Shown here: positions 27,081 to 62,335 of the stretch, one piece after another | Position numbering within the stretch: the stretch's first letter is position 1 | Layout of the letters: each line of letters begins with the position of its first letter | Assembly: GCA_008632985.1 (NCBI GenBank) | Contig: QPGO01000142.1 | Coordinates: 124,001-188,000, forward strand | Length of the DNA: 64,000 nucleotides | Source: Psammoneis japonica | Taxonomy: Eukaryota | Reading direction: 5' to 3' | Translations under genes and position numbers: made by a program | The notes under the pieces: generated by a model | What the model was told of the DNA's origin: nothing | Seen by the model: the letters and a program-made list of their open reading frames with translations, nothing else | Databases searched by the model: none

Positions 27081-27842
27081 GGCGAGTGGCGGGCCGGAGC
27101 AAAACAATGTTGTCTCAGCGTGAAGCGTGAAGTGCAACAACAAAATCTCAACGATTGGTGGGACTGGGATGTCTTCCAGTGTGGACCGCAGCAGTGCCAC
27201 TGCGCGATGCGCACGTGGGACACTGCCTCCATGATGCGCAGATCTCTCGTTCAGCCAGGTGCACGATGTGATGCAGTTGGATGTTTTTGCAGCTCTTGCG
27301 CAGAAAAGACGCATTTTTACATCAGGCGAGCTCGCGCGTTTTCTGCCACACATTTTTAGAAAGTGTGACAAAACTTTGGCTCAACGGAAAGTTGTGGCCA
27401 CAGATGTTTCGCTGCACATCCGGGTTTCTTCTTCAATCCTACAGGGTTCTCAGTGCACTTTCTACACGAGCTTAGAGAACCCGGATGTACAGCGAAAATC
27501 TGTGACCAAAGCTTTGCATCCGGGTCTTTGTGTGACGTAGCTGCCAGCAGTGATTCTGTGCAACATCCGGGTTACATGCAAAGCCAAAGTTGCGCCATCA
27601 AAGTTTTTTGTCGAAAAGCTGTGACGCAACCAAATAGCCCACATAATTGGGGGCCCAAAAATGTGTGATAAAAATGTCATTTTCACGAGTTCGTCACAGA
27701 GATGTGCCAGAGATCGCGCCATTTGTCCGTTGGTGTCGGTCTTGTTGATCGATCGTTTCAGAAAAACCAAAGCAGCTCTGCTGTTTGCTGTTCACACGGC
27801 ACACTCAACACGGCCCACAACCCACAACAGGAGGAAGCCACA

Positions 27843-29166: not shown

Positions 29167-29391
29167 GCATTGTTCTGTTTTTCTAAATAGCACAGTTTGT
29201 AATCTCTAGCCTGATGTTGTAGATGCAATTGGCTTCGACAGCTTAGGCCTACCTGGCAGGCGTCCGTAAGATAAGTAAGACCGGACCCGCATTCGTCACA
29301 TTTCTGCAAGATTTATGTGCGTTTTTCGCCTCAATCCGCGATTTCCCGCAGACCCTCGAAAAGGACTGCCACGATCGCCGATGCCACCTTT

Positions 29392-31234: not shown

Positions 31235-31355
31235 CTTTCCAGATTTTTCTGTGACCAAACGGTTGAAAACTCTCGCTGCCATCATAGAGTTTAATCTCTG
31301 CTACCGTGATCGTGCCGCTGAAACTGTCAAACAATCATAAAAGCTGAACCGAACA

Positions 31356-32798
31356 ATGACATCGTATGAAATTCCGCAGCTGGCTGTCAGCACGAGCCTT
31401 TCGACTCTATCTTCGTCGTCGGTTGGCTTTAGCACCCCCATGAACGCGACGAGGACGTTGAAAGAACTGTACGAGGGAGCACAACTTACACCTCCTGCAA
31501 AAGCTGATCAATTTTCCGTTGCAGAAATGGAGCGACAAGTGAATGGTTTATTAGCTCCCGGGTATTGGGATAGCCTTGATTCGATTGGTCATGCAAAAAT
31601 ATCATTTCTTGTTATGCGCGAGCAACATGAATTGCTGTCGAAGCTCCTCAACGCGACACCGGAAAAGGTAGCTCAAGCATTTCATTATGCGTTGGACATG
31701 AACCATACATTTGGAAAGAGGCTCGATGCCCTCGTTAGGAAAGGGGGGGACATATTTTTTTCGGATGAGGATCGAGAAGTTGCTAGTTGCCCACTGGCGA
31801 CGTTTCTGAGCCGCCACAAGGAGTTTTTCGATCCGGACGATGCCCCGACCATTTTCAACTGCCAGGATAGGTTCAAACGGGTGGAAAAACCGTTGATCTG
31901 GATACAAGAAAATACTTCGACGGTGTGTTACCTTGTCACGGTAGCCTGTGCTATCTTTTACAACCAATGTATCCAAAATGGGGTGACTGCGAACGATGGT
32001 CCCGTTGCGGTTCAGAAGTACTCTCTGAATATCAGCCGGTTCATGAGGGATGAATTCGCAAATGAAGAAATCTGTGCCAATATCTTTATGACCCAAGGGG
32101 GTCATCCCGATGCAATGATGGAACGCCTTCTCAGGCCCCAGAACCCAAACAAGAAAAAGGTTGTAGAAGACTATTGTCTTGACGTCACCATGTCCATTGA
32201 CTTGATTTTTGCGAATGTCAAACATTGGCTTGGCAAGCATGGTGCGCTTGTGGCTTCTGACTTCAAAATGTTCCCAAAGTATGTGGCGGACAAAACAAAG
32301 TGTGTCTTTCATGGAAACTGGAACGACCTCAAGCAAGACGCCATCGAAAGGGAACTCCAAGAAGCCCCTATGGATGTCGACGAATACAACAATTTCTGGG
32401 GTCTCCCCCCAAACGACATCCAACTTCATGCTTTTCTCATTATCGGTGTACGACGTACGACAGGTGAGGATGACATGGGCGGGCTCGCGTTTCTCATTCA
32501 GGATTCGTCGGATGAAAGACCGTTTGTCATTATTGGCCTGGATTTGTTAGTTTCTGCTGGAGTGGAACGGTTGTATGCTGTTGCACAGGATGTAACGTTT
32601 GACTCGGAAAACTTTTGTCATGATAGAACAGCTAATCCGGCCTTCATCATGAGTGGGGGTCACAGTCCCAGAATCTATGACATCCCCTCGAGCGACAGCA
32701 GTGAGGAGGAGAATCTTGAGGAGAGCAACACGGTGAGGAACTTCCATCGCTATTGGACTCCCATTGACCCCGCTAAGATTTCTTACATCAAAACATAA
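31356..32798 (+). CDS. Papain-like (clan CA) cysteine-protease-fold protein
   Basis: IQENTSTVCYL (oxyanion Gln, catalytic Cys), LHAFLIIG (His), FLIQDS (Asp at the usual QNS Asn position). Intact 480-aa ORF with no signal peptide. Confidence 0.6.
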   Translation: MTSYEIPQLAVSTSLSTLSSSSVGFSTPMNATRTLKELYEGAQLTPPAKADQFSVAEMERQVNGLLAPGYWDSLDSIGHAKISFLVMREQHELLSKLLNATPEKVAQAFHYALDMNHTFGKRLDALVRKGGDIFFSDEDREVASCPLATFLSRHKEFFDPDDAPTIFNCQDRFKRVEKPLIWIQENTSTVCYLVTVACAIFYNQCIQNGVTANDGPVAVQKYSLNISRFMRDEFANEEICANIFMTQGGHPDAMMERLLRPQNPNKKKVVEDYCLDVTMSIDLIFANVKHWLGKHGALVASDFKMFPKYVADKTKCVFHGNWNDLKQDAIERELQEAPMDVDEYNNFWGLPPNDIQLHAFLIIGVRRTTGEDDMGGLAFLIQDSSDERPFVIIGLDLLVSAGVERLYAVAQDVTFDSENFCHDRTANPAFIMSGGHSPRIYDIPSSDSSEEENLEESNTVRNFHRYWTPIDPAKISYIKT

Positions 32799-33459
32799 TT
32801 GTGATGAAATGCTTTGCGCTTCCATTGCGTGACATGAATGTGTGTGATGTTGGCAATGGAGATGTGATGACGTGAGCTGTAGCACGTGACAGAGACGTTC
32901 AAAAAGACTCCACAAAAATAGGTAAATAAGTTCAAAAATGAAACTGAAATTTTGCTACCATCATGGTATCTTGAATCTACGCAACCATTTCAATGACACC
33001 GTGTAAATGGGGCTCCTAGTTGAGAGGAAAATGGGGTTTGCCATTCCCTGACAGCGGGGGAAAAAAGAATAACGTGTATGTTCACCTCCACATATCACCA
33101 CATTGTGCCTTTTCTGAAACTGAAGTCGTCCGTAATGGGGCACTCGCCCCATCTCGTGCACATGTTTCGAAAGATGACAATTGGAGACTAACAAATGTGG
33201 TGCCCAGCAAAGGCTCTACAAAATTTCGCACCGCCATTGCAGTTTTATGACGTACACAGTACATCATTGTTTCCGATAACCTTGCCGGTGCGTTGTTTTA
33301 ATTCTGGTGGACACTGTCTGACGCTCCATGTGATCACAGTGGAAATGGTGCCGTTTGAGTTGAGGAATGAAATGAAGTTAGTTGGCCTGGGTTCCACAGT
33401 TTTCCCTGAGACTAAAAGGTGCTTCGTAAGAGGTGTGCTCGTTTTAGTCATCCTTCTTT

Positions 33460-42702: not shown

Positions 42703-43021
42703 CTACGAATTGCTGAACAATTGCGCGATACACGTGCCCGAACGGTGATTGTTGCTTCGGGCACGAAATTCGAGCTTCGCGCACGTAGAGACCGTAGAAT
42801 ATGTACCAGCATTCGAGAATGTCCGATTTGTGTAGATCACGTAGCACCGTACCACAGAGGTCATTTCCTGAAATTCCCGCGACGACTCATACGACTCCAA
42901 TGGTATTTTCAATACCATATACTATGTAGAATGGACATCTGCGCGAACGATGATTGTTGCTTCGGGCAACGATATTCGAGCTTCGGGCACGTGTATCGCG
43001 CAATTGTTCAGCAATTCGTAG
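42703..43021. mobile_element. Intact MITE (319 bp), 40-bp perfect TIRs, TA target-site duplication (Tc1/mariner-type)
   Basis: ta|ctacgaattgctgaacaattgcgcgatacacgtgcccgaa ... ttcgggcacgtgtatcgcgcaattgttcagcaattcgtag|ta, plus an internal ~48-bp direct repeat. Confidence 0.92.
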
Positions 43022-44399
43022 TATCTTCCGTGTTCTTGTGGAGGAAGCACGGGAATTTTTCCCGTATCGAAACAACCGGGTTGTTGCATGGTACGTCGCG
43101 TTTTTGATAGATTTATGCAACAATACAACCGAGACCATGCCGTCTAAAAAGTATTACAAGCCAACCTTGATAGCACTCACGTTATTTCTTGGCGGGGTGA
43201 CTTGTCAATGTGAACAAGACTTCACCAACCAGAGGCCATTCAAACAACCCCCAACGATGTCGTGGTGGATGGGTCTAAAGGCGCATGGAACGCCCGAACC
43301 AGGCGACAACAGCTTGCCCATGCAAGCAAGGTCAAATTGGTTGGAACACTGGAGGAAGCCGATTTCCAGCTACATGTCAAACCGGTTGGTGCCGTGGAAT
43401 GTTCTGTCAAATCAAGGCAACCCGACACGATCAACTGACGCAAAAAACCCCGTGCCATGTTTGACATTCATGTTTGATGTTCTTGTTACATGCAGTGCGT
43501 GTCCAGGGCTTCATTCTTCCTTGTTCAATCCACAACATCGCTGGAGCGCCCCTTCCAATTGAAGCATCATTTCTGTGCGCACGGCATCCAACAAATCCAT
43601 CTGCACAGAATGGAGTTTTGCACAACAAAACCAAGCCTCTTGGATTCCTTGTACAATTTCCATTGATGATGAAACAAGAATCGCGAAAATCGGCCCAAGG
43701 GATGTTGAGATATCACCGCCGCCAACTCTTCACCATAAATTCCAGTGGCAGCTCAATTTTGATCATTCAACGACAAGTTCTGAAGAGAAAGTCAGCACCA
43801 TAAAAACCCAAGCCCCGTGGACACCTCACAGCACACACGTCAAAACAATGACAAGAAGTGAGAAACAACACCAAAGATGCAACAGCACATCACAAAAATC
43901 CGTCATGTTGATGCTGCATTCTCACAATTTCTGCACTGCACCTTCAGCGACAAATCCGCCTCGACGGATTGAACTCAACGCCAGCACCACTGGCCCATCA
44001 CATTGCTCGCATAAAAGCTCCGAATGCTGCGAAAAGAAACGGGAAAATACGGCAAAAACAGACATAGATGTCAGCGACGCAAGGGAGGCCATTGTCGCGA
44101 TCGTTTTCTTTTTTGGTTGTCTTCGCAGCTGCGCGTCTTGGAGGGTGCTGCAGGTTGATGTAGCGGAAGTCGGTGTCTGTGCTTTCCTGGTGACCCTGTA
44201 GAAGAAGTGCCAGACCCTACGCAGTTGCACCCAGGGTTGTATTCTTTCCGTCTACCTCCACAGCACTGCAAACTGAGGGGGAAAATAGGGGGGGTGCCGA
44301 CGGAAGAAGAGGGGGGGAGAGGGGGAGCGAAGCGACCCCGTTGCTGCTGCAACGAGTCAAGGAAAAATTCAAGTCAGAAGTGTAAAAAACATGCCAGAG

Positions 44400-44575
44400 C
44401 CTGCGCCACCAGTGGCGTAGAATGGTTCAGGGTGCACACAAATTTTGTGCCACAGTGGCGTGCGTGATTTTGACATGAGATTCTACATGCGCCTGGTGGC
44501 GTAGACCCAGTGCAAAAGCAACAAATTTTTGAAGTTTTGTGGCATACAAAGTCAGCATGTTGTGGCGTAGATTCG
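44400..44575. repeat. Cluster of GTGGCGTAG motifs (probable transposon subterminal repeats)
   Basis: gtggcgtag at ~44412, 44496 and 44562; variants gtggcgtgc (~44455) and gtggcatac (~44539); inverted ctgcgccac at 44401. Confidence 0.5.
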
Positions 44576-46050
44576 ACATCAACAAGACTTCGCGCAACAC
44601 TCGCAACATTCAAGACAACAGACAACCGCTCGCAAAATCTCGCTCCCACTTTACACGTTGCAGCTGATGTGGTGTTGTTCATTCGTCCCACTCGTTTTCA
44701 TCGTGGAACCTCCTGATGACACAGGGTGTCTTTCAGGCATGTGCATCGGTCTGATTGCCCCCCCCCTCTTTGGGCAAGAATGGGGTGTGTGGTTTGCTTC
44801 TTGAAGACACCAGACCAGCCACAAGGAGCTTGCAGTGGAGAGCTGGCAAGCAAAGCACTGGGCTGCGCCACAAGGCACTGGCTGATGGGACAGCATTGGG
44901 CAAGCACAACTGCAAGCATTTTCCTGAGGGCACTTTGCACCACATGTGACAAAGCCAGAAACATGGACTGTGAGAAACACATGCAGAGCCAGGTTTTGCT
45001 CAGCTGGCCACCCAGAATTCAAGCAGGGGTGCAGCCGGAATGAAGAAGGCTGCAGGTCAATTTGAGGTCCCAGTGGGAACTTGCTTTGCATGTTTGTTAA
45101 CAGCCTGCTGCAGAAGCCGTGGCTGCACTGGAAACCCAAAGGTGGCGGTGCGTGATGGGGTGGATCTTGCAAATTCTCTCAAGATTTTGTGGTGCACGGG
45201 GCCAAAATTTGGGTGCAGCATCCACAGATGCTTTGGGAGAGATGCTGTGAATTCGTCAAGGCAGGCACTTCTGACAGCATGGGTGGGGAAGGCCAGTGCT
45301 TGTTGCCAGGGATCTTTGTGAAGATCTTTTAAAGAGGATGACACTGCGTTTTCTCACTTGGAAACTTCAGAGAATTGTTTGGGCACAGTGCTGGGGCCAA
45401 ACCCGCCAAAGTGTGCACTGAATTTTGGAGAACAAAGAAGACACAGATCCGCGGCAGTGGCCACCAAGCTGGCAGGGCAAGGCTTGGAAAACAAGCTGCC
45501 CAAAAAGCCATGATGGGCTGGCAGCAAAGCACTCCTCACAAAAGATGCTGCTGTCAAGCTGTGCCACAGACTGGCACAACTCCACAGTTCTCCAGCACGC
45601 TGTGGGAGCTTTGCTGCCAAGCATGTAAAACCGCAGCACCTCAAGTCACAGACAAGCTGCTTTGCAGGCAGAAGCCCAGCCAAGGGCCGCAAGTTGACAG
45701 CCCCACAGCGTCTTCTCTTTTTCTCCTTTTTCCTTCTTTTCCTCTCTCTCTTCTCCTTTTCTCCTTTTCAGTTTGTTCTTCTGGGCTGCCTCCGGCGGCC
45801 ACCTCTTTCATTCTTCCTACATGCCAAAATCTCCAACAAGAGAGAAGGAAGGAAGAGAGGAGAAGAATGCAGCAATGGCGGAAGTGAGTGCAAGATGCGA
45901 GACGTTGTTGCGTTTTCGTGGCGTCGAAGACAGAGGACATCAGCCCATCGCGCATAAAAAGATACGAAGGTTGATTTTATTTAGGCGGCATCGCCCCCCA
46001 TTTCCCATCTTCCATCTTGTCCTTGATTCGAGATGCAACATGGGACAGAA

Positions 46051-49000
46051 TCACAGTTGCAATGATGTGTCTACATTTGCAGGCTGCTTTGATGAGCAAT
46101 GATGTGGTGCTCTTCCTCGAGCAGCCACCCCCAACAAGTTTGTTTTTGAAAGGTGAAAATCTCGTGCTCGGAAACAACAGAATTTTTGAGTCAGACCCGA
46201 CTGCAGATTCGGCGGCATCTGCAACGGTGGCAAAAATGTTGGCAAACTGGTCCAAAGAGGAATCGGCACGCAACATGGAAGGGGTCATGGCACAATCGGC
46301 ACTGGTGTTGGCTTTCGTGGCAAGACCACCTCCTCTTGCAAATTGGAAGGTTTCATTTTTTTGGCGCGCGGTTCCTCAGACGGCGGCGGCTGCAGTGACT
46401 TGGATTTTTTTTGAATGGGTTCTCCATGATCGGCATCGGGTTGGAACGAGTCGAGTGTGGATTTTTTGTGCCACACTTGTTGCACATGCATCTGTCCGAA
46501 TCTTTTTTGGAGGATGCTGCTGTCGCGCCGGCGGGTGCCTTCCTCGACTCAAGCTCCTCTCTCAAACGTTCAAGTTGCTTTGGGCAAGCTGAAAAATGTT
46601 GCTCTCCATTGTCCTGTGCTAGCTCTCTAACGTTCTCATGCACAGGATGTTGAACTCCAGCTTTTTGGGCCAGCTTGTTGTTGCAGTCGAGGCGGCTGTG
46701 ATTCAGAAAGGTGGGGACGCCTCGAAAGGCGTGCGGAATCTTGGCGCGCTCGTCAGCCGTCATGTCATCAACTGGGAGACGCTGTCTTGTTCCTGTGTTG
46801 TGCTCGCATGTTCCAGCAAGACAGAGAGCATCAATGAGGGTGCTTCTGGAACCGGTGTTCCCAAAATGCTTGACGACGTGATGGCATTTTTCTGGCTTCG
46901 ACTCGGTGCCTGTGGTGGTGACGCACGTGTCTAGCTTGCACTTCGACCATTTTGAAGGGTGCACAACACGGTGCAAGTCTTGACGCGCAAGTGGCTCGTC
47001 AAGTCCACGAGCTGACGCTGTTGCATTTTGCACTGCCAACTCAGTGTCTTCCATGAAAAGGGGCTTGCCAGAATCAGGGTCATGTCGTCCGCCGGCTTCA
47101 GCTGCTCCAGGAGACGCCGTGCACTTGTGGCGATTGAACCACGCCTCAAGATTTTTGTTTCGAGTTTCTAGAGGGTAAGTCCACCTTCGTGTGCACTTGT
47201 TGTAGTTCTTCCATTTCTTGCTGTTCTTGACATCTTCAATTTCTTCCCTTGCATTCTTCTTCCCACCGAGTCTCCCAAAGACAAGTGCATCGACCACACG
47301 CGACTCGTCAGATTCGTCGTTGCATCGTGCACAGTCCTTCAAATCACGGACTGCACGACAACAATCAACATGAGTGGCCCGCAGTGTGTGAACAATTTGG
47401 TTGGTCCAGCGCCAAAGGCCAAGCCGACGTGCAACATCCTGACCAAAAATTTGTTTCCAAAATTCTTCTTTGTTTGGCCAGGTGTCCGAGTGGTGAACGC
47501 GAGGCTTCACGTTTGGACGTCGAGCAAATTGCTCCGCGGCATGTGCGTGATCTTTTGTTTCAAGTGTTGGCACAACTGCCGCCACTCCAATCTCCCCCGT
47601 CTCACTTGCCATGGTGAACAGTCCCTTGCCATCCGCTTCTCTGTAATTTTTCAGTTGATCAAAAGTGTGGTCTGATGCGACACTTACACGACAACCAACG
47701 GACTGGATTTCTCTGGTGTGCCGCATGTTGTCGCTGATGCCAGTCTCGGTAAGATCTGACTTGCGCACAGCATCGTGCACGTCGCGCACATTTTGTCCTG
47801 TTGGCCCATGTCGACCCATCCAGTCCTCAAATGCTGATGATGGGCTTGTTGCGTCGCTGCCAGCATCAACCGACTGCAAAAAATGCCGCTCTTCCCTGTC
47901 AAGAAAATTGCGTCCTCGTTGTTGATGCAAGAAGGCGGGTGTGTCGTCACCATTGCTGCACTTCTGCATGGAGTGGTCGATGCATCGTGTCGTTGGTGAG
48001 GTTAGATGAAACGATGGATTGGCGTCAGCATGACGTAGATCCACGGGATGACAAAGTTGCAGATGTCTTGGAAGCTTTTTAAGCAGCTTGGCGTCATTGC
48101 CTCTGCACTTGCAACCGCATTTATTGCATTTGTAGCACACAGACGTTCCCCAATCAGCAGTGCCACTTACATCAAAGATTGGAGTCGGCGAATGCTCCCT
48201 CTTGATGTCAAACTGTTGATGGATCATCTCACCATCTTCGCACCCATCAACACAAGGCAAGCAGACACCAAGCACAACAAGTTCCCAATGGAGAATGTGG
48301 ACAGTCACTCCTTCAATCTCGGCATGCATGGCATCAGGAGCCATGGATGCATCATCCCGAGGCACGGCAAATGACATGGTGCCGGCAGGAAAGTTCTTCT
48401 GGTGCCATTTCAATTTCTTGGCATTCACGTCTCCACCCATGATCTCATTCGAGTTGGCATGAAACCGAGATGGACACAAGTCCAGAAGACACACAATCAA
48501 AGCCTGAATGGGCGCGGGACAAGGAATCTTCTTTTTTTTGCACGTCTCAATTCGTTTCCGGATCTCTCTCTTTAGCACCGGTGGAGAAAGAAGATCTTCT
48601 TCAATGTCATTGTTAGAATGCTCCGTGCCATTTGACGTGACAGTGCTGATGGCAGCAGCAGCAGCAGCATTCGCACTCAACGTGACAGTGCCAGCAGCAG
48701 CAGCATTCGACGAGACGGCGGTTGCAGACGGCTCAGTGTTTTTTGAAGCCCTGGTGCGAGAGCAAAAGAGTGTCTCCATGCCTTCCTCAGTTGGAGCCTG
48801 ACAACCCGGTGGCTTTTTTGCGTTCTTTCTTGCGCCACCAGTGATGAAGCGATGGACAGCCGCGTTTCGCTCGGTGCTCATGTTCTTTCCACAGTGGATG
48901 GATTTTGGGCAGGTCGTGTCATGACCCTTTTTGTAGGACGGCCCTTGTTTGCACCTTTTGCACTCAACAAGCTTCTCTTGAGCAGTGTGACTGTTTGGCA

Positions 49001-49070
49001 GAGTCAGAATTTGCGATTCTGCCTCTGCCGCCGGTGATGTTGCAAACCGAGGCGCATTTTTCCCCGACAA
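46051..49070 (-). mobile_element. Zisupton-like (KDZ group) transposase, heavily missense-mutated; C-terminal FCC..RGR..H..C motif in a shifted frame
   Basis: YKCNKCG..DAKLLKKLPRHL (DUF6729-like), SDHTF, ETGEI, SDTWP, DPDSGKPLF and GTESKPEKCHH..F occur in Zisupton order. Only 5 Tyr in 905 aa. Termini not found. Confidence 0.7.
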
Positions 49071-50824
49071 CTTAGCGATTCCAGAAAAAGCTCGCTCCTT
49101 TGCTTTTTTCGTGGCTGCCTTTCAAGTCTGAGACTGAACACCCATGGTGCTGGGAAGCTTGCGGGAGCAATGCTTCTCCATTCTGCTGCAATTCCTTCTC
49201 TCAGAACTCTCTTGTGCAGGTCGGCACTGATGATGAGTGAGATGAAAAAAGACTGGAGGAGTTTGAATTTTGTGTGTGGTGTCTTTGTCAGAGCGCAGGT
49301 GCTCAGACTGTGGTGCATCCGTCTGAGATGGATGAACCGAGGTGGCTGTGTCTGAGTTGCATTGATCGTCAAGCAATGATGATGTGCATTCTTTCAGAAA
49401 GCCCCAAGCATTGCAACGTGTGTTCTTGGAATGAAGCGTTCTGATTGGTCCAATCTTCCATCGGCAGGGGGCTTTCGTCGGAGGGGCTACGTGGCCAATG
49501 ATCGATGACGTCACAGCATCCCTGCGCCGCCGCGTGCATTGTCTTCTGCATTGCCGCGAGCTTCAGACAACGTTGCTGAGGCAGGTTTACTTGTCTGAAG
49601 CTTGCTGTGCATTTGGCATTTTTGGCTCAAGTTTCAAGTGCCTCTGTGGAGTGTGTGTTCTCTCAGTTGAAAAGGACTCTCCAGAACTCCCAGTGCCAGG
49701 CCCTGCACAAGCGAGGGATTGTGCGCCAAAGTCCTGCGCAACTTTCTTGAGGCCCGCATGTTTGAATGACTGAACAACAAGCACCATCACTTGCTTGAGC
49801 AGGTGACAGCTGCAAATGCATGCAACATTGAGTTCTGTGGCTGTCACTTGTTTCCAATCACTTCTGTGCAGCTGCTTGCTCATCACAAGTGTGTTTCAAT
49901 GTTTCGGTGCAATGCCACATAGAGTCCTGGTGCGTTTCTGCACATTGGTGCATTTTTGCACATTTCCCAGAAACTCAAAAATGTGCCCTGCACATTTAGC
50001 TGGTCCTTGACAGTGCTGCATGTTTGCCATGCAGCATTCCAGCATGAGAAGGTGTTCTCACCGGAGATTCTCGCCTCTCAACCTTTGGGCCGACACTGGC
50101 ACAAACGGCAAACCGGGCGGTGCCACAGCAGCAGCACGCACAGCAATTGCTCTCTTGGTCTGAAAACAGTCCATGCATTTTTCATCACTGAGCACAATGA
50201 GCAATGTGAGGGAATTTGTTTTCTGGCACTCACTCACCACCTGGTGAGGGAGACTCCCCAAAGGGCCCCAAAGGGGTGCAGTTGGACACCACTTGAATGT
50301 TTGGAGCCCTCTGGCATTTCTTGACATGCAGTTGAAGATGGGCTGCATCATGCTTTCCAATGAGTGTAATGAGTGGTGTGAGGGAACTTGCTTTCTGGTG
50401 CTCACTTGCCACCTGGTGAGCAAGACTCCCCAAGGGTGCAATTGGACCACTTGAGTGTTTGGAGCCCTCTGGCATTTCTTTCAATTAAAGGTGGGCTGTG
50501 TCATGCTTTCCATGGCCTGAAGCTGGCTGATTGCTGTGAGTGTTCAATCAGAGAACAAATGATGTGGACACAGTGAAACAAGTGACTCAGCTCAGCTGGA
50601 GCAGTGTGTGGAGAGACATTCTTGCATGTGCACAATGCTGTCACCTTCATGTGTGGGTGCTGACGAATGTCGCCACAGTGATGTGGTCACCAATGGGTGA
50701 GGCAACCAGGGTGTGGAACTCATGCACACTTGGAGTTGCCACAGTGTGCCAAACATGACCAGCTCTCCCTCTCCATTTTGCTGAAAATGGCTGACAAAAC
50801 TGCAACCAGAATGTCTGCCACAAC

Positions 50825-51172
50825 AGCTCTGGGGCATCAAGACATGAGATGCAGAAACATTGAAAGGAAAGACACTTTTGAATCCTGGTGTGGCACAGAA
50901 CAATGATTCTCTCTCAAGAGAGATGATGCACCATCACTTGTCCCCTGTGCATTGTTTTTTGTTTTGTTCTCACCCTTTGGAGTGAGTCATTTGGTTTGCA
51001 TGATTTGTCTTTCAGCATCAGGAGGTGCCTGTCATGTCGTTGGTTTGAAGATTGTTCTGGCACCACAGGCAACCCCCATGGCCACTGCAGACTGCTGAGG
51101 CAAGTGCAGAGAGAGTGTTGCAAAAGACCTTGCAGGATTCCCTTTTGGTGACATTGACTTGCTGGTTCAACA
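50825..51172 (+). repeat. 5' LTR of the Copia element (start approximate)
   Basis: Homologous to 57768-58116; both end ...gacttgctggttcaaca. Confidence 0.75.
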
Positions 51173-54100
51173 TTCACTCCAAAGAGGCTCAAGCAAAAAT
51201 GGCAAGTGCTTGTAACTTCTGGCCTGCATGCAGCCAACAACTGAACACTGAGACCCTGCACTGTGAGTGGCATGGGAGGTGACAGGAACCAAGTCTGAGA
51301 GGTTGTGGCCATGGAAGAGGTGACAAACATCACAGGTCTTTCAATGCAAACACAAGTGCCACATTGAAGAAATCCCTGATGGCACCCAATCTGTCAAAAG
51401 GAGGCAGCCTGGAGAAGGTGCAAGAGAAAAAGCAAGAGGACAAAGAGCTGCAGTGCAAGCACAAAGTGGAGCTGCATGACTGCCATGTGAAGGCAAGGCA
51501 GTTTGATGAGAACAAAGCAACAACATTCTCCAAGATGCTGGATGGCTTTTGCACCAAGCAAATGAGGCAGAGAGTGCAAGATGATCCAACCAATTCAACA
51601 ACCAGGGCTGATCCAATCAAGCTGTTGAAGCTGATCCAGACCCTTGCATTCAACTCAATGAGAGGCCAACATCCATTCTGTGCACTTGTCAAGTCTCTGA
51701 AGAACATTTTAGATGTGAGACAACAAGAAAATGAAGGAACAGGCAATTGCTCATCAACATTTAAGAACCAGCATGACACTGCGAGCAAAAGGCCAGAAAA
51801 AATGTCAGATGGATTGGTGTTTGAGACATGGGTGACACATCTGTTCACAGAGAACATTGGTGATCACTGTTGCAAGAGCCTCAAGGAGAGCTTCATGAGA
51901 GACTGCAATCTGGGCAAAGACACCCTTCCAAAGACTCCAGAGAAAGCAACAGATGTGTGACTGAAGCAACCATCCAAAGGACAATCATCCCCAAGCAATC
52001 ATGTCAGGAGAAGAAATGACAGCCAAGGAGGCAATGAGAAAGACAATGGCAACAATGACAGCAAAAATGACAAGGGCCAGAGCCATGCCCAGACAAGAAA
52101 CCAGGGCAACACTGCACAATGTGCCACTGCTGTGGCAACAATGTTGCACATGGCAGTTGGTTTGAGGCTGCCAGAAGGAAACTGGACATTGGGGGACAGA
52201 GTCATGCACAGACTCAGAGTGGAGAAGAAGACCATTCATTGGTGGAAAGCAACAGCACAAGCATTGACATCACAAGATCTGACAGACTGACCCATTCCAG
52301 CCAAAGCAAAGGTCATGCATGGAATGGGCTGCACAGCTGGCAAATGAGAAACCGCAGAAGAGAGCATGAACCAGATGACGTGGTTCCAACTGTGGAATGG
52401 AATGCCACAGGGTGTGCACCAAGAGGGAGGCAGCTGACACTGAGTGAGCACTCATGTGTTGTGGAGTGTGAGAAATTCAAAACAATTTTGCACTCAAATC
52501 AGGTGAAGAATCTGTCAATTGTGCCTGAAGACATGGACAAGATGGTGGCAATTTGGGGACCACCACCAGATGTGACAAAAGGCAATGCCAAACACATGCA
52601 TCATTCCCACAAGAGGAATGACATGACAGTGATTCCACCTGACTGAGTCTCATGAGAATCAGAGAGGCAATGTGACTCTCTGCATTGGCATCATGGAAGC
52701 GTGCACAGTCATGAAGATGCAGCGCAAAATTGACAAGACAATCAAGAACCAATCAAGTGTGACACTGAGGTCCAAGAAGCACATTGATGTTTGGTGCAAC
52801 GCACTGGACACAATCCTTCAACAGCACTGCATGGCTTCATTCAAGATTTTGTGAAATGCAATCCCAAGTTCATGAAGATGCTGGCAAAAGTTGCTGATGG
52901 CATGAACCTGGAACTGCTTTCCACAAATGCTGTGGAGCATGTTCTGGAAGTTGAGCAGAGCATTGAGACTGTCAAAGAATGAACTTGTGCCACTGTGCAT
53001 CACCTGCCACACAAGACAACACCCAAATTGCTGTGCAAGCATGCCATCACAGAGACCACTGTCATGACAAACGTGTGCCTGCAGAAGGAAGGAATTTCCA
53101 ACAAGGGCAGATTGAAGAAATGTGTCTGATGGAAAGGACCAAGGATGTGGTCATGCTGATGTTCCTGTGATGGAGAAACAAGATGGCAGCACAAAAGGGT
53201 GGATGGTTGGAGGTGGGGAGCCAACAAGAAAATTGGCCAAACAAGGATGAGTCAGCCAGTCTGACAGCATTGTTCATTGGAGTCATGATGACTGCAACTG
53301 TCAATGCCATGAGGAAGAGTGTGATGAAATGACTGCTGATGTGCCAACTGTGTTCACACAGACACAAGTGACAGATTCAGACTGAGGAGGGTGAAAAACA
53401 GATTGTGATGAAGATCACAGTAAAGTTGGTCAACTTGCCAGTGAGCATCAGCTCCAGCCTGTGTGAACCACATGTGGTCCTGGAAAACGAGCATGGAGTC
53501 CTCTGCATCCAATTCATCAGAGCAATTTGTGGCATGTTGGTCACAGCTCCACCATGGTGCAAACAGCTTCAAAAAGACTTTGAGAAAACAGGGTTTAAGT
53601 TCAACCCATGCAACCCATGCACTGTCAACTGGGCAGTCAATGGCAAGCAGCAAACTGCCTGTTTCCTGTTTCCATTTGAACAACCTGATGTTGAGCCACA
53701 AGAACCCAAAAGCAAACAACAAGTTTCCAAGCTGGCTGAACAAAATGTGTGGAAGCCACATGGCAAAGTCATTGCAACTCAAGGAAAAAGGCATGAGTGC
53801 CTGGGGATGACCCTGAACTTCAGTGAAAAGGGCAAGGTGAAGGGCAGTGTGACTGACTGTGTCAAGAAGATGTCAGACATCAGCTCCTGGAGAAGATCAA
53901 GAGTGCAGATGTTGCCATGGCACCAGCTGGAGAAAAACCATTTGAGGCTGGTGGGGTGATGTTGCCGACCAACAAAGCAGAGACACACCACACCTGGGTG
54001 GCCAAGGGGCTGTTTGCATCCAAGAGAGGCCACACAGATGCACACCCCACCATTGCAGCATTGTGCACGTGAGTCAAAGAGGAGCCTGCAAACAAAGATT

Positions 54101-57100
54101 GGGACAATTTGGTCTGCTGTTTAAGACATTTGAGTCAGACACAAAATGAACAGTCACTGCATTTGGTGCAGATGGCTTGCAAACAACAAAGTGGTTTGTG
54201 AGTTCACCATTCATGGTGCACTCAGCTTTCAAGCACCACACACAGGAGGAGTTGTGACAATGGGCAATGGAGCACTGCAGGCCATGTCAAAGTGCCAGAA
54301 GGTCAACATGACATGAACCAGCACAGAGGCCAAACTTGCATGAATTGATGATGTGCAATTGATGGACCATGATCCTTTGGACAAAGTGTTGTTCATGGAG
54401 CACCAAGGGCATCCAATTGACAAGAACATCCTGCATCAGGATGACAAGAGCATCGTCATTCTGTTGGAAATGAATGGGCACAGGAGGGCAGACAAGAGAT
54501 CCAGAGCACTTCACATTTTGCATTTCTTTGTTGCCAATCAGATTGAGAAGGGCAGCTTGAGAGAACACAGCATTGCCCAGCAGATGATGTGCTTGGAGAC
54601 TTCATGACAAGAAAGCCATTGCACATCAAGAAGTTTTGCAAGTTCAAGCAAGCCGTTGTGGGTGGCAAAGAACAAGCATGACAGGAGTGCATCCTGTTTG
54701 TGACATCAGATGAGAACTCTGATGCATGTGGGTGAAAGACACCCCTGTTCAATGAGAGATGGGCAACAGTGCCTCAGATTTGACAGAACACAATGCACAA
54801 CATCAGCAATTTGTTCATCAACAACAGCCATCAACCATGAGTGAGTGAGGTCAATGAAGCAGTGAAACTCAATGATGAGTTGGGCACACTCTGTGATGTG
54901 ATTGTGCAACAGTGCTCAGAAAATTGCTGGAAAGATGTGATGGCCATGACGGGTGTGTCACAAATGCCAAGAGACAGTTGTTGAGTGCAGATGTTGACAA
55001 GAGAATGCCAAGGGCTTGAAATCCACATTTCAAGGAAACAAGTGATGAACCAACACAATGGCTTGGGGGCAACAAGAGCCAATTGAGTTGTGACCCTTGC
55101 ACCCACCATCATGATGTTTTGGATGTGCGCCAGATGATTCTGGCAATGAAGGACAGCAGAAGGAGTCAGGTGTTGCAGCATGACTAGATCCCATTCTTGC
55201 AGGTGGGCTGGGGCATGCCCTGTGTGTCAAGAGGCATGAGCCAACAAAGATTGCATGTGAAGATGTTTGCAAGTGGACTGATGAAACACAAATGCATGTC
55301 TGCCACTGCACTGATGTTTTTGTTGTTGCACATGATGGTCTGAGTGCACCACACAAGATGGCCACCATGCACCAATGGAGCTTGCACAAAATCAAGGAGC
55401 TTTGGCAGATTGGCATGTGCTGAGCCTCAAGGCAGGGCAAGGTGTGCATCTCCCACCATGGGACTTGATCGTTTGTAGATCGACGGCCGCAACGTCGATC
55501 AAGATGAGAGTGCAGTCACACCACTGTCAAACAGTGCTCATTTCGATGGTTGTGCTGGATTTCTCGGCAATGTTGACTGTTGTGCCGCATTTGGACACAC
55601 CAACAAGCAGTGTGTTTGCTGACTTTTTCTGCAGGGCTCTCACGACCGCTGCATGAATGAGTTTGCAATCACCAGGTTTGCCTCCACTGCAGATGATGTG
55701 ATGACCAGTGTCCAAGGAATGCACACGTGTGGGCAGCATCATTTTTGTTTCTGCTGTTTCTCATGACAGATGCAGAAAATGACATTGTGATTTCCAATGT
55801 CGACAATGCACCGTGTGCGACATGGAAAAGGAACAATGGAATGTTTTTTTTTCAAAGAGAGAAGAGGAGCTAATTTGTGTGGTGAGTGCAGTTGTTGGAC
55901 GCTGCAAACAATTGTTGGCACCTTGTTTGGAATGTTTTTTTCTTCCCTGTCAAAGCGACAGCAGCAATCACAGCACCTTGCTCATTTTTGCCCCATGGTG
56001 TCAATGCAGCTTGGCTGCGTGATGTGGCACGTGGTTTGCTTTATCACGGGACAGTGCGTGAAACCAAAAGTGCAATGGACAGGAGCTCCGAACCATCGGC
56101 GATCGGATCTGGAACCAGCTCGTCGAGCTCGTTCCAAATCCGTGCTCAAATGGATCGGAGCGGCTGTCCTTCGTTGCGTCTGTACGTCGTCCGCACGGAA
56201 ACTAATTTTACCACCATTGGACACTCTAACTGGCCAACCACCCCAATGGGCAATGAAGCACAGAAGCTCAACACATGAAACAGCACAGAGGCCAAGCATG
56301 CAGGAGTTGACAATGCAATGACCATGATCCTGTGGATGAAGTTGCTTGTGGAGCACCAAGGGCATCCAATTGACAACAACATCCTCACTCAACATTTGGC
56401 AGTTTTTTGTCACACCAGCCAGACTGAGAAGGGCAACCTGAGAGCACAGCACTGCCCAGCAGATGATGTGGTTGGAGATTTCATGACTGAGCCCATGTGG
56501 GGCAAGAGGTTTTGCAAGTTCAAGCAAGCTGTTGTGGGTGGTCAAGGATGAGTTTGACAGGAGTGCATCCTGTTTGTGACATCAGAAAAGAGTTCTGACA
56601 CATGTGGGTGAAAGATCCCTTTTCAACGAGAGATGGGCAATGCCTCAGACTCAACAGAACACAGTTTGCAACACCATTGATTTGTTCATTTAAGAGCAGT
56701 CATCAACCATGAGCAAGGTCACCAAACAATGCAGCTCAATGACAAGCTGGGCACACTGCATGACATGCTTGTGCAACAGTGGCCAGAGAGCTGCTGGAAG
56801 GATGTGATGATTGCAATGGAGACATTGCATGATGCCAGCAAATGGCTGTTGAATGTGGACATCAACAAGACAATGTTGAGGGCTTGGAGCCACACTTTGT
56901 GACAGCACATGATGAGCTGACACTGTGGCTCAAGGGAGGTGAGAGCCAACAGAGTTGCAACCCTTGCATCCATTGTGACATTTGGATGTGCACCAGATGG
57001 TTCTGGACACAAGAGAAAACAGAAAGAGTCAGCAGTGTTGGCACAGTGAGATCCCACATCTGCAGGCATTGAAGAGAGTGTGTGAAGATGTCAAGAAGTG

Positions 57101-57767
57101 GGCTGATGAAGCCACTGCCACACCAATGTTTTTGACACATGATGGTCCAAATGCACCACAAGAGATGATGGAAATGGATGGAATGTGCACAAGACCAAGG
57201 AACACTGGCAGATCATTGGATGTTGAGCCTCAAGGCAGGGTGAAGCATGTTGTCATCACTGCAGGAGCCACACAATGAGAGCAACAAGCACATGATTGAT
57301 GATGAGCACATTGCAGGTTCCAGGGGGCAGCAAACTGAAGCTGGTCCTGGACAGAACTGACATTGCAAAACTGAGTGAAATGTTCATGGTCAGTCATCCT
57401 GCACTTGACACAAGCAGAAAAGGCCCACTTGTGAAGCTCAACCCCAGGTGCCCGGAGGACACAGTGAGTCAGCATGGACTCACATGGGACAAGAGTGGCA
57501 TCATTTTTTGTGACAGAGAGAAGTCAGTGTTTTTCTTTCATTGTGTGGAGAATGTTCAAGACAGCACAGATGTGCTCAACAACACAGTTGATTTCTCTGA
57601 TGGGAGATGGCATGCCTGCATGCACCTCTGTGCTCTGTCTGACTAAGAAGAAGTCAGCATGGCAAGGCACTGAGAGAACCACGTGTGGGCATTGTGTGGC
57701 AGTTGGAACTGCTTGCAAGCAGAGTGGATGAATCAGTGGTTGAAAACATCAATGCAAGTGGGAGGAG

Positions 57768-58116
57768 TGTGTTGGGACATGTCAAAATGTGAGACCTGGA
57801 AGTGTTGAAAGGAAAGATGCTTTTGGATCCTGATGTGGTGCAGAGTGATGATTGGTGTCTTGGACAAAAGATTCACTGTTGCAAATCCCCCATCTGTTGT
57901 TTTTGTTTTGTTCTCACTCTTTGGAGTGAGTGAGTCATTTGGTTTGTGCAATTTGTCATTTGGCATCAGGAGGTGCATGTCACATTGTCAGTTTGAAGGT
58001 TGTTCTGGTGCCATGGGCAACCCATGGCTGCCACAGACTGCCAAGGCAAGTGCAATGAGTGTCACAGGAGACCTTGCAGGACTCCCTTTTGGCAACACAG
58101 ACTTGCTGGTTCAACA
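57768..58116 (+). repeat. 3' LTR of the Copia element
   Basis: Starts TG after the purine tract ggaggag and ends CA. Shares ttgaaaggaaaga, ttgttctcac.ctttggagtgagt and gcatcaggaggtgc with the 5' LTR. Confidence 0.75.
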
Positions 58117-59349
58117 GCTTGGTCATGTCACTCAGGTCAAGTGAGGCCTTGAGAAAGGCCACTGCATCCTTCTCATGAACATGATGATGGGAACCACACT
58201 TTGGACACTGCAGACCACCCAAAGTGGTGGCACTTGACTTGGTGCAGCATGATTGGCCAGCTGCACAACAGGTCATTGTGGTGGGTTCCTCAGGGTTGGG
58301 TGGGTGAGTGATGGTGTCCATTCTTCAGTCATCCTTGAGATGTGCCAAAACACTCTTTGCAAATGCTGGCAGATCACCCTGCTTGGCAAAGTGAGTGAAA
58401 AGGCCTGCAGCCTGGCAGGTCTTGCTCTTCTGGGTGGCAGCACCAACAACATGGGTGCCAGTGGCAATGATGATGGCACCTTGAGGGGGGCTGACAGGTC
58501 AAAGCCCAGCCAGCTGGCCTTGAGCTTGTCTCTGGTTCATGCCACATGACAAAAGGATCCTGCCGGCACCAGCTCACCATGTTGGGGACAGGAGGGCTGT
58601 GGGAGTCCAGCAAACCTTGTGGCCATGCAGTGCATGATTTGGCAACAAAATGATGACACCAACTCCTCATTGTCCAATGACTTGCAATCATCATGGCATC
58701 AAGGCAGAGGTGGTGCGGAGTCATCATGAGCATCCTCAGCATCCAGAGGAGGAGGGTCCTTGGCATCCTGAGGAGGCAGAGGATGATCTTGATGGGGTGG
58801 ATCCTCCCTGCCCCATGACATCAGGGTCATCCGCCACTGCACTCACATTGCAAAGCATTGGTGCAAACCAATTGTCTGGGGGATTCTTTCCCAGAGAATG
58901 CTGGCTCAGAGAGTTGTGTCTTGAGCCTCAGGAGGGCCATGGAGTGGAGCAGTGCCTGAGACAGTGGCATGTGTGGCAGATGCAATGATCTGACAATCAA
59001 CATTTGGTGGGCCCAGACTTGAGGAAAACTGCTGGTGGAGCCAGTGCGGAGCACACAACAAAACAAGCACAGAGTGCAACCCCCAGGTGTTGCTCTGACA
59101 GAACCAGAGCCAAAGGCAGATGCTCTGGCTTTTGGGTGTCCCCAAACTGAAGCACACAATGGGTTGAGTTGCATCAATTGGGCGACGATGCAACCACCAG
59201 CTAAAGCTTAACACCTCAGACTGATGGTGGAGCGCAGACAGTCTCTGCTGATGAGCAGCAATGCAGTGTTCGGTCAAAAGCACATCACAAACAAAGCTGG
59301 CCAGTGCCTCAACCCACTCATCTAGAATCTGCTGAGTGCAAATGCGTTG

Positions 59350-59740
59350 CGTGTGACATTGGGCCCACAGAATTCCACGTGCGAGATCCACAGCAAAAGT
59401 GTCAAGCAATGAACACACATGAGTCATCAGCAACAGAAAATGAGGCCATTTTGGGAATGTGTCTCCTCCTCCACACTTCAAGTGCACCACTTGCAGTTTG
59501 CCTGGGTGTGTTCTTCAAACATTGGAGAATGTGTCTGGCCCATTTTTGCACTCACAATGAAGAAAATAGAAAGCCTTTGGTTTTGCAAGGCACAAAGCAT
59601 GAAACAATTTTGTAGAAAATCACATGCAGAAATGCACATGCATGATGTGGGATGTGATCCAAAAAACTGTTGATGTCACAGTTCAGCAGCATGAGGTCCC
59701 ACCCAGAGAGCTGGAACGTGTCCGCAGCTCCACAAACCAC
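59350..59740 (-). repeat. Inverted copy of the 23895-24290 dispersed repeat
   Basis: Reverse-complement alignment by eye; homology stops at tgtgaca in both copies. Confidence 0.8.
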
Positions 59741-59750
59741 AGCGTGAAAA

Positions 59751-60500
59751 TCCATGCCATCTGCTGGTGCACTGGAGGCAACACCAGTTTCCTGACAATC
59801 AACCCAACACCAAAAAGAACCAAAAATGGTCTTGTGACACTCATGGGGGCCAATTGTTGTCAAGCTGTGGGCTCTGGCAATTTAGACCAATGTGGCAGAA
59901 TTTTGGAAGGAAAATCATCTCTCACAGATTTGACGGACAAACAGACAGATGAAAGACAGTGTCAATTGGCAGAACAGTGTGCAAGTGCTGTTTGAAGCAG
60001 AGCCATGCACTGTTGCTGCTCAAGATCTGGTGACACACCTGCACCCATTTTGTTTGATGGCAGCCGCAAGCAGAAACAAAACGAGCACGCACCTCAAATG
60101 TCCATGCCATCTGCTGGTGCACTGGAGGCAACACCAGTTTCCTGACAGTCAACCCAACACCAAAGAGAACCAAAAATGGTCTTGTGACACTCATGGGGGC
60201 CAATTGTTGTCAAGCTGTGGGCTCTGGCAATTTAGACCAATGTGGCAGAATTTTGGAAGGAAAATCTCTCACAGATTCAACGGACAAACAGACAGATGAA
60301 AGACAGTGTCAATTGGCAGAATGGTGTGCAAGTGCTGTTTGAAGCAGAGCCATGCACTGTTGCTGCTCAAGATCTGGTGACACACCTGCACCCATTTTGT
60401 TTGATGGCAACCGCAAGCAGAAACAAAACGAGCACGCACCTCAAATGTCCAACTTTTTGAGTTGCCCGGAGCTGACCCTTGTGTGTTGAAGTTTTCTTGA
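59751..60500 (+). pseudogene. 3' relic of an ankyrin gene paralog, with a near-identical 350-bp tandem duplication (59751-60100 / 60101-60449)
   Basis: WQNGVQVLFEAEPCTVAAQDLVTHLHPFCLMA versus WQNGLEILFEAEPRAVAARDPVTHLYPFCLAA in the intact gene at 39540-39734. Confidence 0.9.
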
Positions 60501-60784: not shown

Positions 60785-62014
60785 ATGAGCACCTGCAAAA
60801 TGAAGCAACGTGAGACCAACAAGCAGATCGAGCTGCTGCGATTGAAGAATCAAACAAACGAACTGGAATCAGCCATCAGAAAGGGAACATCGATGATTTT
60901 GCCACTCATCCCGCCCGGCAACGCCCAGCTCATTCGTGCCACCAAGTTGCTCAATGACGAGTTGCGAGTGGCCACCAACATCAAATCTCGGGTTTAACAG
61001 GCAATCTGTCCAGAGCGCCATCAAGTCGGCTCAGCAGCGACTCAAGCTCTACAACAACAGGTGCCCAGCAAATGGCCCAGTCGTCTTTTGCGGTCTTGCC
61101 GAGGTGCAAGACAGTCGAAAGGAAAGGATGACAACTGTTGATCTTGAGCCCCCTCAACCAGTCAAATTCTTTCTTTATCGCTGTGACAATCGTTTCCATG
61201 TGGATCGCCCAACTTCATCATGTGTTGAGGAAGGTGAAGAGCCATGCGGTTTCATTGTCGTGGATGGCAACGGGGCGCTCCTTGGTTTGCTGCAAGGGTC
61301 GCGAAGAAGAGTTTTGCACAAGTTTTCAGTCGATCTTCCCAGCAAGACTCATCGCGGAGGACAATCGGCTTTGCGTTTTGATCGGATCCGAGTGGAAAAG
61401 CGAAACATTTGCATGCGCAAGGTCACCAAGTTGGCCATGAATTCTTTTCTTTCTCACGGCGACCAGCTCAATGTGGCCGGTCTTGTCCTTGCTGGAAAAG
61501 CAGACTGCAAAAATGACCTTGTCCAGAGCAGCCACTTCAGGCGTCTCTGCGCTCATGTTGTGGCTTGTTTGGATGTGTCGTTTGGAGGAGAACGTGGATT
61601 TGATCAGGCAATCGACAAAAGTGCTGAAACGATCGGATGCGTCACGCTGGTTCGCGAAAAGCGTCTGTTGGAGAACTTCTTTGAACACGTCGAGTGCGAC
61701 ACAGGAAAGCATTGTCACTCCGCAGAGGAAACCTTGCACGCTTTAGAAATGGGAGCCGTGAAAGATTTGATTGTATGGGACGGTCTTGATGTGACCCGCT
61801 GCGAGATGCAAAACAAAGAATCAGGGAAGCAAGTGGTTTCCTTTTTCTCCAAGTTGCAGGAGGAAACAAAGAGCGTCGATTCGTTTGCAGTTGCCAAGAC
61901 AGAACCACTCCTTGATTGGATTGTCGACCATTGCAGTAATTTTGGTTGCAACTTGGAGCTAATGTCAGACAGAAGCGGAGTCGGAAAACAGTTTGCCGCA
62001 GGATTTGGCGGAAT
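60785..62014 (+). pseudogene. eRF1 pseudogene copy B (frameshift at ~60995, 3' truncated)
   Basis: GTSMI, ATNIKSRV, LYRCDNRFH, RGGQSALRF, DVSFGGERGFDQAI, ALEMGAV. An extra T in gtttaac creates a stop. Confidence 0.92.
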
Positions 62015-62335
62015 TTTCGTTAGCAGTTAGGGGTGTCTATGGGGTCGTAAGGGACAACGGTTGTCCCATTCTTGTACGCTGTATTTTCAGCCAAATATCA
62101 TATCATGTCTTCAGTGAATTATGACTCAGCAATCCCCAATTATGACGATGCAACATTTAACAACATCAACATCCTTTCTGGCAATTATGACGCATCATCA
62201 CTTAACACTGCCAAAATAGAAATGGAAAATGGACAGACGCAGTGGCGGGAAAACTGCATGCGTGCATCAACGCATCATCAACCATCACCACACCGCGGCG
62301 ACACCATGGCCACTCGGTTCCGTTCATACCGCCAC

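What the first reader, a model, noticed from the sequence alone, without database searches (positions are those of the whole stretch)
46353..49070. TA loss precedes CpG loss, and inactivates by missense without closing the ORF
Seen: the Zisupton-like ORF, the Harbinger element and eRF1 copy B keep many CG dinucleotides yet have lost most TA. More decayed relics (Copia, P450) have lost both. The 905-codon frame remains open with only 5 Tyr and many Cys/His. TA to TG/CA cannot turn a sense codon into a stop. Inference: the TA process is faster than, or mechanistically separate from, 5mC deamination, giving a two-stage clock for element age.
Basis: partly seen in the sequence, partly recalled or inferred. 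Interest (0 to 1): 0.72.

Follow-up and report, generated by a model that had tools for sequence, protein, structure and literature searches.

The report
Fast TA-erasing mutation outpaces CpG decay
In the jumping genes of this alga, TA steps are rewritten to TG or CA roughly 5 to 25 times faster than CG steps decay, in the same patches of DNA; this scrambles the encoded proteins first, and stop codons come later from CG decay, so it marks a targeted mutation process with an unknown enzyme rather than a usable clock.

Summary
The composition is real: TpA o/e 0.12, CpG 0.84, 5 Tyr in 905 codons, against a median 3.5% Tyr in homologs. TA→TG/CA outruns CpG decay about 5-25-fold in young copies, and 326 genome windows form an L. 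The reading needs three corrections. (1) There are not two stages: CpG loss runs alongside and concentrates in the TA-hit copies and tracts. (2) It is a poor clock: TA loss spans 0-80% among equally young copies. (3) This gene is not open: it has a CGA→TGA stop at codon 8 and a frameshift. The element is a DDE transposon without Zisupton's 8-bp target duplication. Added here: a context code (ATAT hit most, TTAA least), A→G leakage at NAY, no strand runs, and the same TA-first pattern in one copy pair of a distant relative (29% identical protein) from a metagenome. TpA hypermutation is published for Bigelowiella natans; this scan noted it, and the order, on other DNA of this genome. The enzyme is unknown.

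The parts
45834..49481 (-). DDE DNA transposon copy (about 3.65 kb), lacking the family's 3' terminus
   Evidence: extent from alignment to genome copies; fold like IS256/Mutator and hAT transposases
49143..49145 (-). native ATG of the transposase gene (1,028 codons in the open copy L006)
49122..49124 (-). premature TGA at codon 8; CGA in 10 of 14 other aligned copies (CpG-type change)
   Evidence: window allele not seen in the laid run
46353..49121 (-).
47670..47672 (-). first Asp of the presumed DDE triad, retained
   Evidence: invariant in 62 homologs; mapped
47484..47486 (-). second Asp of the presumed triad, retained
46890..46892 (-). Glu of the presumed triad, retained
47409..47411 (-). 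invariant His changed to Arg (CAC→CGC), an A→G change outside TpA
   Evidence: His invariant in 62 homologs; CAC in 13 of 13 other copies covering it
46405..46412 (-). A-run one base short: frameshift that cuts off the C-terminal ~110 residues (assembly slip not excluded)
46084..46086 (-). native stop TAG now CAG
   Evidence: TAG in 9 other copies shown
25662..29355 (.). young Harbinger-type element with inverted termini; TA survival 0.46, CG survival 0.89
43021..44263 (.). copy of a very young 1.34-kb repeat family (Y): 26 of 58 TA kept, 60 of 61 CG kept, one end untouched
44361..45833 (.). copy of a second young repeat family (X): 10 of 35 TA, 31 of 36 CG kept
31235..32956 (+). unedited block with a 485-codon ORF; its twin on C326 lost 37 of 56 TA and 4 of 87 CG, giving 25 missense changes and no stop
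60897..62030 (+). eRF1-like copy B: keeps 4 of the 25 TA sites of copy C; copy A (39769-40936) keeps 20
50001..60000 (.). old relic block, both steps lost (TA 0.04, CG 0.14); composition only

Best explanation
After insertion, some transposon copies (and DNA next to them) enter a silenced domain. Inside that domain two processes run at the same time. A host activity changes A:T to G:C almost only at TpA steps, one site at a time and on either strand, preferring ATAT/ATAC and avoiding TTAA/CTAA/CTAG, with a small leak to other N-A-Y sites. CpG decays C→T about 5-25 times more slowly. TpA therefore runs out first, down to a floor of resistant contexts, and CpG follows: the L-shape. Because TA→TG/CA cannot make a stop and removes TAA/TAG, young copies collect 50-66 missense changes per 1,028 codons, Tyr→His/Cys above all; nonsense arrives mainly by CGA→TGA. 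Shown: spectrum, rates, contexts, co-location, protein effects. Inferred: that the domain is CG-methylated silent chromatin, that CpG loss is 5mC deamination, that the missense load kills the transposase, and that the activity is a DNA adenine deaminase (my preferred enzyme class, about 0.45).
For: Rates. Polarised pair 31235-32956 vs C326: 37/56 TA, 4/87 CG, 3 other changes (all A>G/T>C), none private to the window copy. Family Y: copies with TA loss under 20% lost 4/501 CG, those with 50% or more lost 44/917, at equal non-A>G divergence (8/8056 vs 15/14740). CG loss 41/883 in heavily hit tracts vs 5/652 in spared tracts; within-copy permutation on 47 events p=0.0024. Context model on 3,154 site-copy observations, similar in two disjoint subsets; check on other DNA: ATAT 0 of 491 surviving TA in depleted windows vs 478 of 5,999 in gene-like windows, TTAA 5.9-fold enriched. 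Off-target A>G 44 vs 3, 53 of 56 with a 3' pyrimidine. No strand runs: 566 same-direction neighbours vs 568 expected. Missense counts. Stops: 42 of 50 are TGA, 33 of them at Arg-majority codons. Diatom CG methylation sits on TE islands (PMC9998398, passages). De novo TpA-only A→G/T→C mutation measured in B. natans.
Against: No methylation, chromatin or expression data for this genome were seen. No enzyme was identified; deaminase-family loci exist but were not read. Age resolution in family Y rests on 23 changes, some perhaps inherited or errors, and tandem copies share events (47 unique of 53 CG losses). Spared tracts could be gene conversion from intact copies, which would also make TA and CG co-vary. 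The presumed DDE residues survive in the window copy, and no assay shows loss of function. The hazard ratio is not constant (4.5-8 in Harbinger, 21-23 in the youngest sets). A few tandem changes (TAA→TGG) look more like polymerase errors or short processive runs.
Confidence: 0.7

Rival explanations
1. One reading: two independent, sequential processes; TA loss dates young elements and CpG loss dates old ones.
For: L-shaped scatter: 44 of 145 windows with TA<0.2 keep CG>=0.4, and all 144 with TA>=0.45 have CG>=0.6. In the window copy's clade CG loss rises from 0.23 to 0.94 as private divergence rises from about 1% to 8%. A young Harbinger inside CG-poor DNA keeps CG (L046); an old copy between gene-like flanks has lost it (L004).
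Against: TA loss 0-80% at equal non-A>G divergence; CG loss tied to TA loss across and within copies. Near-identical duplicates differ completely.
Confidence: 0.12
2. Error-prone repair: 5mC deamination (T:G mismatch) triggers patch resynthesis by a Pol-eta-like polymerase that writes A→G at W-A, so TA loss is a by-product of CpG damage.
For: TA and CG losses co-locate; the commonest off-target context is AAT/AAC (34 of 56); tandem TAA→TGG changes occur. Pol eta acts downstream of deamination in antibody genes (abstract starts in listing; the WA preference is recalled).
Against: In heavily hit family Y copies 588 of 908 TA sites changed against 44 other A>G changes in 14,740 sites, far sharper than the few-fold TA:AA contrast I recall for Pol eta; no same-strand runs; few transversions.
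Confidence: 0.12
3. The target is the T, not the A: a thymine modification at R-T-A (for example by a TET/JBP-type or methylating enzyme) that mispairs with G.
For: Sequence cannot tell A→G in TAY from T→C in RTA; much of the context effect is symmetric about the TpA dyad.
Against: No such mutagenic thymine mark is known to me in diatoms; nothing was tested here.
Confidence: 0.05
4. Native composition or assembly artefact: the family is naturally TA- and Tyr-poor.
For: Coding DNA here is mildly TA-poor anyway (o/e 0.4-0.55).
Against: Inferred ancestral TA o/e 0.47-0.67; family Y copies with 67/67 TA exist; homolog Tyr median 3.55%, minimum 1.69%, n=119; five pieces of 129-216 bases in a public run match the window copy with no difference (possibly the source sample).
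Confidence: 0.01

Closest known systems
TpA hypermutation of integrated NCLDV and virophage DNA in Bigelowiella natans (Mettrop et al., bioRxiv 10.64898/2026.01.13.699255; read parts 1-3 of 5, abstract to conclusion, plus two term searches; supplements closed)
   Same: TpA→TpG/CpA on both strands; confined to foreign DNA; patchy in activity; TpA-poor CDS enriched for DDE and reverse-transcriptase domains; enzyme unknown, ADAT2-like deaminase proposed.
   Different: There measured de novo in two viral regions of a rhizarian. Here a standing footprint in 145 of 326 sampled 1-kb windows, on DNA transposons, small repeats and duplicated genes. The main text has no occurrence of 'diatom', 'CpG', 'context', 'tyrosine' or 'missense', so order against CpG, flanking-base code and protein effects are not treated there; its supplementary tables list the mutations and could bear on context.
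Repeat-induced point mutation (RIP) of ascomycetes (abstract start of PMC7296669 in listing; details recalled)
   Same: Repeat-directed transition mutagenesis far above background, linked to DNA methylation.
   Different: RIP is C→T, creates TpA and stops, and (recalled) mutates both partners of a duplication. Here TpA is destroyed, stops are erased, and one of two near-identical copies can be untouched.
5mC-deamination decay of CpG in methylated transposons (established knowledge; diatom CG methylation by DNMT5, PMC9998398 abstract start and passages)
   Same: The slow arm here fits it: CG→TG/CA on both strands, rising with divergence.
   Different: It cannot make A:T→G:C changes; here it is the minor process in young copies.
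TadA/ADAT2 and ADAR deaminases (PMC10661471, passages: ADAR 5'UAG, TadA/ADAT2 5'ACG)
   Same: A→G outcome with a 5' T; a 3' pyrimidine is favoured, as in the ACG motif.
   Different: TAG, the ADAR optimum, is disfavoured here (relative rate about 0.3-0.4). No enzyme was linked to the process.
DUF6729-associated eukaryotic DDE transposases, structurally near IS256/Mutator (ISCth4) and hAT (Hermes)
   Same: Model of homolog P0001 matches ISCth4 transposase (E 6.6e-5) and, weakly, Hermes; nearest Atlas clusters carry DUF6729 on 24-96% of members.
   Different: No Pfam family passes its cut-off in 30 homologs; target duplication 5 bp where readable, asymmetric ends, head-to-tail tandem copies.

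Membership tests
B. natans-type TpA hypermutation | A→G/T→C transitions almost only at TpA | tested here: met
   37 of 44 differences in the 31235-32956 pair; 588 TA changes vs 44 other A>G in hit family Y copies
B. natans-type TpA hypermutation | both strands (TG and CA products) | tested here: met
   994 TG, 930 CA pooled
B. natans-type TpA hypermutation | confined to foreign/mobile DNA, host genes spared | tested here: met
   three gene blocks differ from their C326 twins at 5-8 TA sites each, both ways; duplicated eRF1 copy B is hit, so not strictly foreign DNA
B. natans-type TpA hypermutation | de novo rate about 1000-fold above background, active in only some lines | not testable with these tools
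   needs mutation-accumulation lines; copy-to-copy patchiness is compatible
B. natans-type TpA hypermutation | same enzyme (ADAT2-like candidate) | not tested
   5 MafB19-deam and 4 A_deamin matches (2 loci) exist; sequences not read
Fungal RIP | C→T transitions that raise TpA | tested here: not met
   TpA falls to o/e 0.03-0.07
Fungal RIP | both copies of a duplication mutated (recalled) | tested here: not met
   0 vs 37 TA changes in a 97%-identical pair; 67/67 TA kept in two members of a 32-copy set
Zisupton (KDZ) | 8-bp target-site duplication (PMC12730594, passages) | tested here: not met
   5-bp duplications in 2 insertions, a likely third, unclear in 5 others with both ends fetched; none of 8 bp seen (read by eye)
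Zisupton (KDZ) | terminal inverted repeats | tested here: inconclusive
   short inverted motif at the 5' end and about 20 bp inside the 3' end; termini asymmetric
Zisupton (KDZ) | KDZ transposase family match | tested here: not met
   window protein: no Pfam hit; 30 homologs: one CxC5 at E 0.038, one DUF6729 at E 1e-4, none over cut-off
DDE transposases (RNase H fold) | D, D, E triad on a transposase-like fold | tested here: met
   invariant D503, D568, E753 and H592 in 62 homologs; fold match to ISCth4. Catalytic role inferred.
5mC-driven CpG decay | CG methylation of these tracts | not testable with these tools
   no methylome available

The most novel reading that the evidence does not exclude
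Diatoms, and perhaps other algae, encode a natural DNA adenine editor that works on duplex TpA steps (best ATAT/ATAC) and is steered by the same silent, CG-methylated domains that cause CpG decay. It disables new transposons by Tyr-directed missense before neutral divergence accrues, and its spread across eukaryotes can be read from protein databases alone as mixed Tyr→His/Cys at conserved Tyr columns (4 of 60 homologs; DNA checked for one).
Probability: 0.35. Interest if true: 0.88.

Novelty: new variant of a known kind. Interest (0 to 1): 0.64.

Why it matters
A repeat-directed A:T→G:C process runs against the usual mutation bias and against RIP. Here it has marked 145 of 326 sampled kilobases. 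It silently corrupts repeat consensus building, TE dating and gene calling: copies look old or diverged when they are very young, and dead DNA gains long open frames. The context code and the co-location with CpG loss give direct handles for finding the enzyme (deaminase, Pol eta and DNMT5 knockouts make different predictions). A natural DNA adenine editor would also interest the base-editing field. The Tyr→His/Cys fingerprint makes the range of the process testable without genomes.

Tried and rejected
Strand-coordinated tracts: looked likely by eye in L005, rejected (566 vs 568). Pure edge effect for CG retention: rejected by L046 and L004. Lag before CpG decay: not seen; CG loss is 4.8% at 0.1% non-A>G divergence in hit copies. 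Word-index homolog search found nothing; the HMM search found 997. No solved-structure hit by sequence. DNA for homolog P0033 not found. No RNA holder listed, so 'intact expressed members' could not be tested. Laid contigs sum over all family copies and cannot show ongoing mutation. CA→CG rates from 3-5-copy families are confounded by convergent CpG loss, so the order of the minor 5' contexts (A > C >= G in family Y; G highest) is unsettled. Rows dropped: 3 diverged family Y copies of 32; L008 as non-independent of L007; L048 as partial; 2 diverged MITE rows; 4 of 330 windows with N. The 33 sample stretches were picked at round coordinates, not drawn at random. Literature searches: diatom+TpA+depletion+transposable elements+CpG gave 2 unrelated papers; TpA/A-to-G/repeats/hypermutation/genome defense gave 7, none on this by title or abstract start; DUF6729 gave 0; PMC9399415 was irrelevant. 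The library lacks most subscription papers. That the organism is a diatom is my inference from gene style and the earlier notes, not a test.

Full report
1. Observation. The stretch 46353-49070 is TA-poor and CG-rich: 18 TA (o/e 0.115), 151 CG (0.84), 5 Tyr, 39 Cys, 44 His. Six host-like ORFs have TA 0.42-0.54. The Harbinger and eRF1 copy B behave like the stretch; three relic blocks have lost both steps at an unchanged 48-49% G+C. In 326 one-kilobase windows from 33 stretches elsewhere in the genome, 145 have TA<0.2 and 44 of those keep CG>=0.4; all 144 windows with TA>=0.45 have CG>=0.6, and only 1 of 174 with TA>=0.3 has CG<0.4.

2. The element. It spans 45834-49481, lacks its 3' end, and the genome search gave 51 matching pieces. 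A profile search found 997 homologs. Sixty-two of them share invariant D, D, H and E residues; a model of one (pLDDT 79.8) matches the ISCth4 transposase at E 6.6e-5. No KDZ family passes cut-off, and the target duplication is 5 bp where readable against 8 bp for Zisupton. It is an unclassified DDE transposon.

3. The ORF is not intact. Copies align on an ATG at 49143-49145 and a TAG 1,028 codons later (L006). The window copy stops after 7 codons at TGA (CGA in 10 of 14 other copies), lacks one base at 46405-46412, and has CAG for the native TAG. Only 2 of 10 near-full copies are open from ATG to end. Of 50 in-frame stops in the family, 42 are TGA, 16 at codons where the majority is CGA and 33 at Arg-majority codons. 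The code allows CGA→TGA but no TA-derived stop. Caveat: the A-run may be an assembly slip, and the laid run did not show the codon-8 allele.

4. Missense load. Thirty-seven inferred ancestral Tyr codons (16 with Tyr seen in some copy) now read 5 Tyr, 19 His, 13 Cys. Homologs have a median 3.55% Tyr; of 25 Tyr-majority columns the window copy keeps 3 and has His or Cys at 16. Five young copies carry 50-66 TA-derived missense changes each; Tyr codons are hit hardest (28 of 148 kept). The triad survives; an invariant His became Arg by A→G outside TpA. The cleanest case lies elsewhere in the window: the twin of 31235-32956 on C326 lost 37 of 56 TA and 4 of 87 CG, with 3 other changes, 25 missense, no stop, Tyr 14→4. 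Loss of function is inferred, not shown.

5. Order. A star-tree likelihood fit gives ancestral TA o/e 0.47-0.67 and TA/CG hazard ratios of 4.5-8.1 (Harbinger), 11-17, 12-24 and 8-20 (three other subfamilies). Polarised sets give 21, 23 and 10. In older copies CG loss climbs from 0.23 to 0.94 with private divergence. TA is faster; CG does not wait.

6. Clock or state. In family Y, 29 young copies range from 67/67 to 13/67 TA kept. TA loss does not follow non-A>G divergence (rho 0.16, p 0.42) but follows CG loss (rho 0.77) and off-target A>G (rho 0.78). Family X agrees (rho 0.71 with CG, -0.06 with other changes). Within copies, hits form tracts, often sparing one end, and CG losses fall inside the hit tracts (41/883 vs 5/652; p=0.0024). 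So TA loss records whether and where a copy entered a mutable domain. CpG loss dates copies only after that entry. Conversion from intact copies remains an alternative cause of spared tracts.

7. Mechanistic clues. Direction is random along a copy, so events are many and independent. Relative rates by the base 3' of the changed A are T 1.0, C 0.7, G 0.38, A 0.25; A at -2 is favoured, T at -3 and A at +2 disfavoured, much of it symmetric about the TpA dyad. Survivors in depleted DNA confirm this. Leakage goes to N-A-Y. TAG is disfavoured, which argues against an ADAR-like preference. A deaminase acting on duplex TpA fits best, but Pol-eta-type repair and a thymine lesion are not excluded.

8. 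Beyond this genome. Four of 60 homologs show His/Cys at 32-42% of conserved Tyr columns (median 2.5%). DNA was found for one of two tried: P0020, 29% identical to the window protein. Its two metagenome copies, L161 and L162, differ over 1,473 bases at 20 TA steps (10 TG, 10 CA, all lost in L162; 27 kept), 2 CG steps, 1 other base and one 6-base gap. L162 has no match in G000 (an empty search is weak evidence). This is one pair from an unidentified organism.

9. Comparison and verdict. The spectrum is that reported for B. natans, whose text does not treat CpG, context or protein effects. The scan had noted the process many times in this genome and the order twice; those notes led me to the preprint.

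Noticed in passing
window 16469-41000 vs G000:C326:1-20041: C326 repeats this region at about 97% (haplotype or duplicate) but lacks the Harbinger and the 1.85-kb insert at 29392-31234.
   Followed up: partly
window 16469-18260, 36701-39747 vs 19290-23000: Against C326, gene blocks differ at 1.6-2.9% of other sites (many transversions) but the old relic at only 0.5%. Unexplained.
   Followed up: no
window 39769-40936, 60897-62030, L065: All three eRF1-like copies found look broken: B and C share a frameshift just after the N-terminal NIKS motif (motif recalled), A has deletions. The working gene was not looked for.
   Followed up: partly
window 31341-32798: 485-codon ORF without Pfam hit, part of a low-copy block (C326, two places on C120); unedited here, edited on C326 where it abuts a repeat island.
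   Followed up: partly
L005/L009, L007/L008, L010/L016; L145-L147: Both the transposon and family Y form head-to-tail tandem arrays; L007 and L008 share most TA changes, so that duplication followed the mutation.
   Followed up: partly
L044-L047 flanks: Harbinger 3-bp target duplications read TTT, TTA, TGT, TGT; TGT may be an edited TAT.
   Followed up: no
window 23921-24318: A 0.4-kb MITE-like repeat with very many candidates in the genome; 2 of 37 TA sites kept here.
   Followed up: partly
L162:1-489 (minus): Open frame resembling a Harbinger-type nuclease N-terminus by eye, next to the transposon; not searched.
   Followed up: no
G000:C40:112674-113392 and C79:344558-345390: Two separate A_deamin-family loci; one ADAT1 would be the usual expectation (recalled). 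Not read.
   Followed up: no
window 42701-43023: A perfect 42-bp inverted repeat with a nested 53-bp one, just left of the family Y copy.
   Followed up: no
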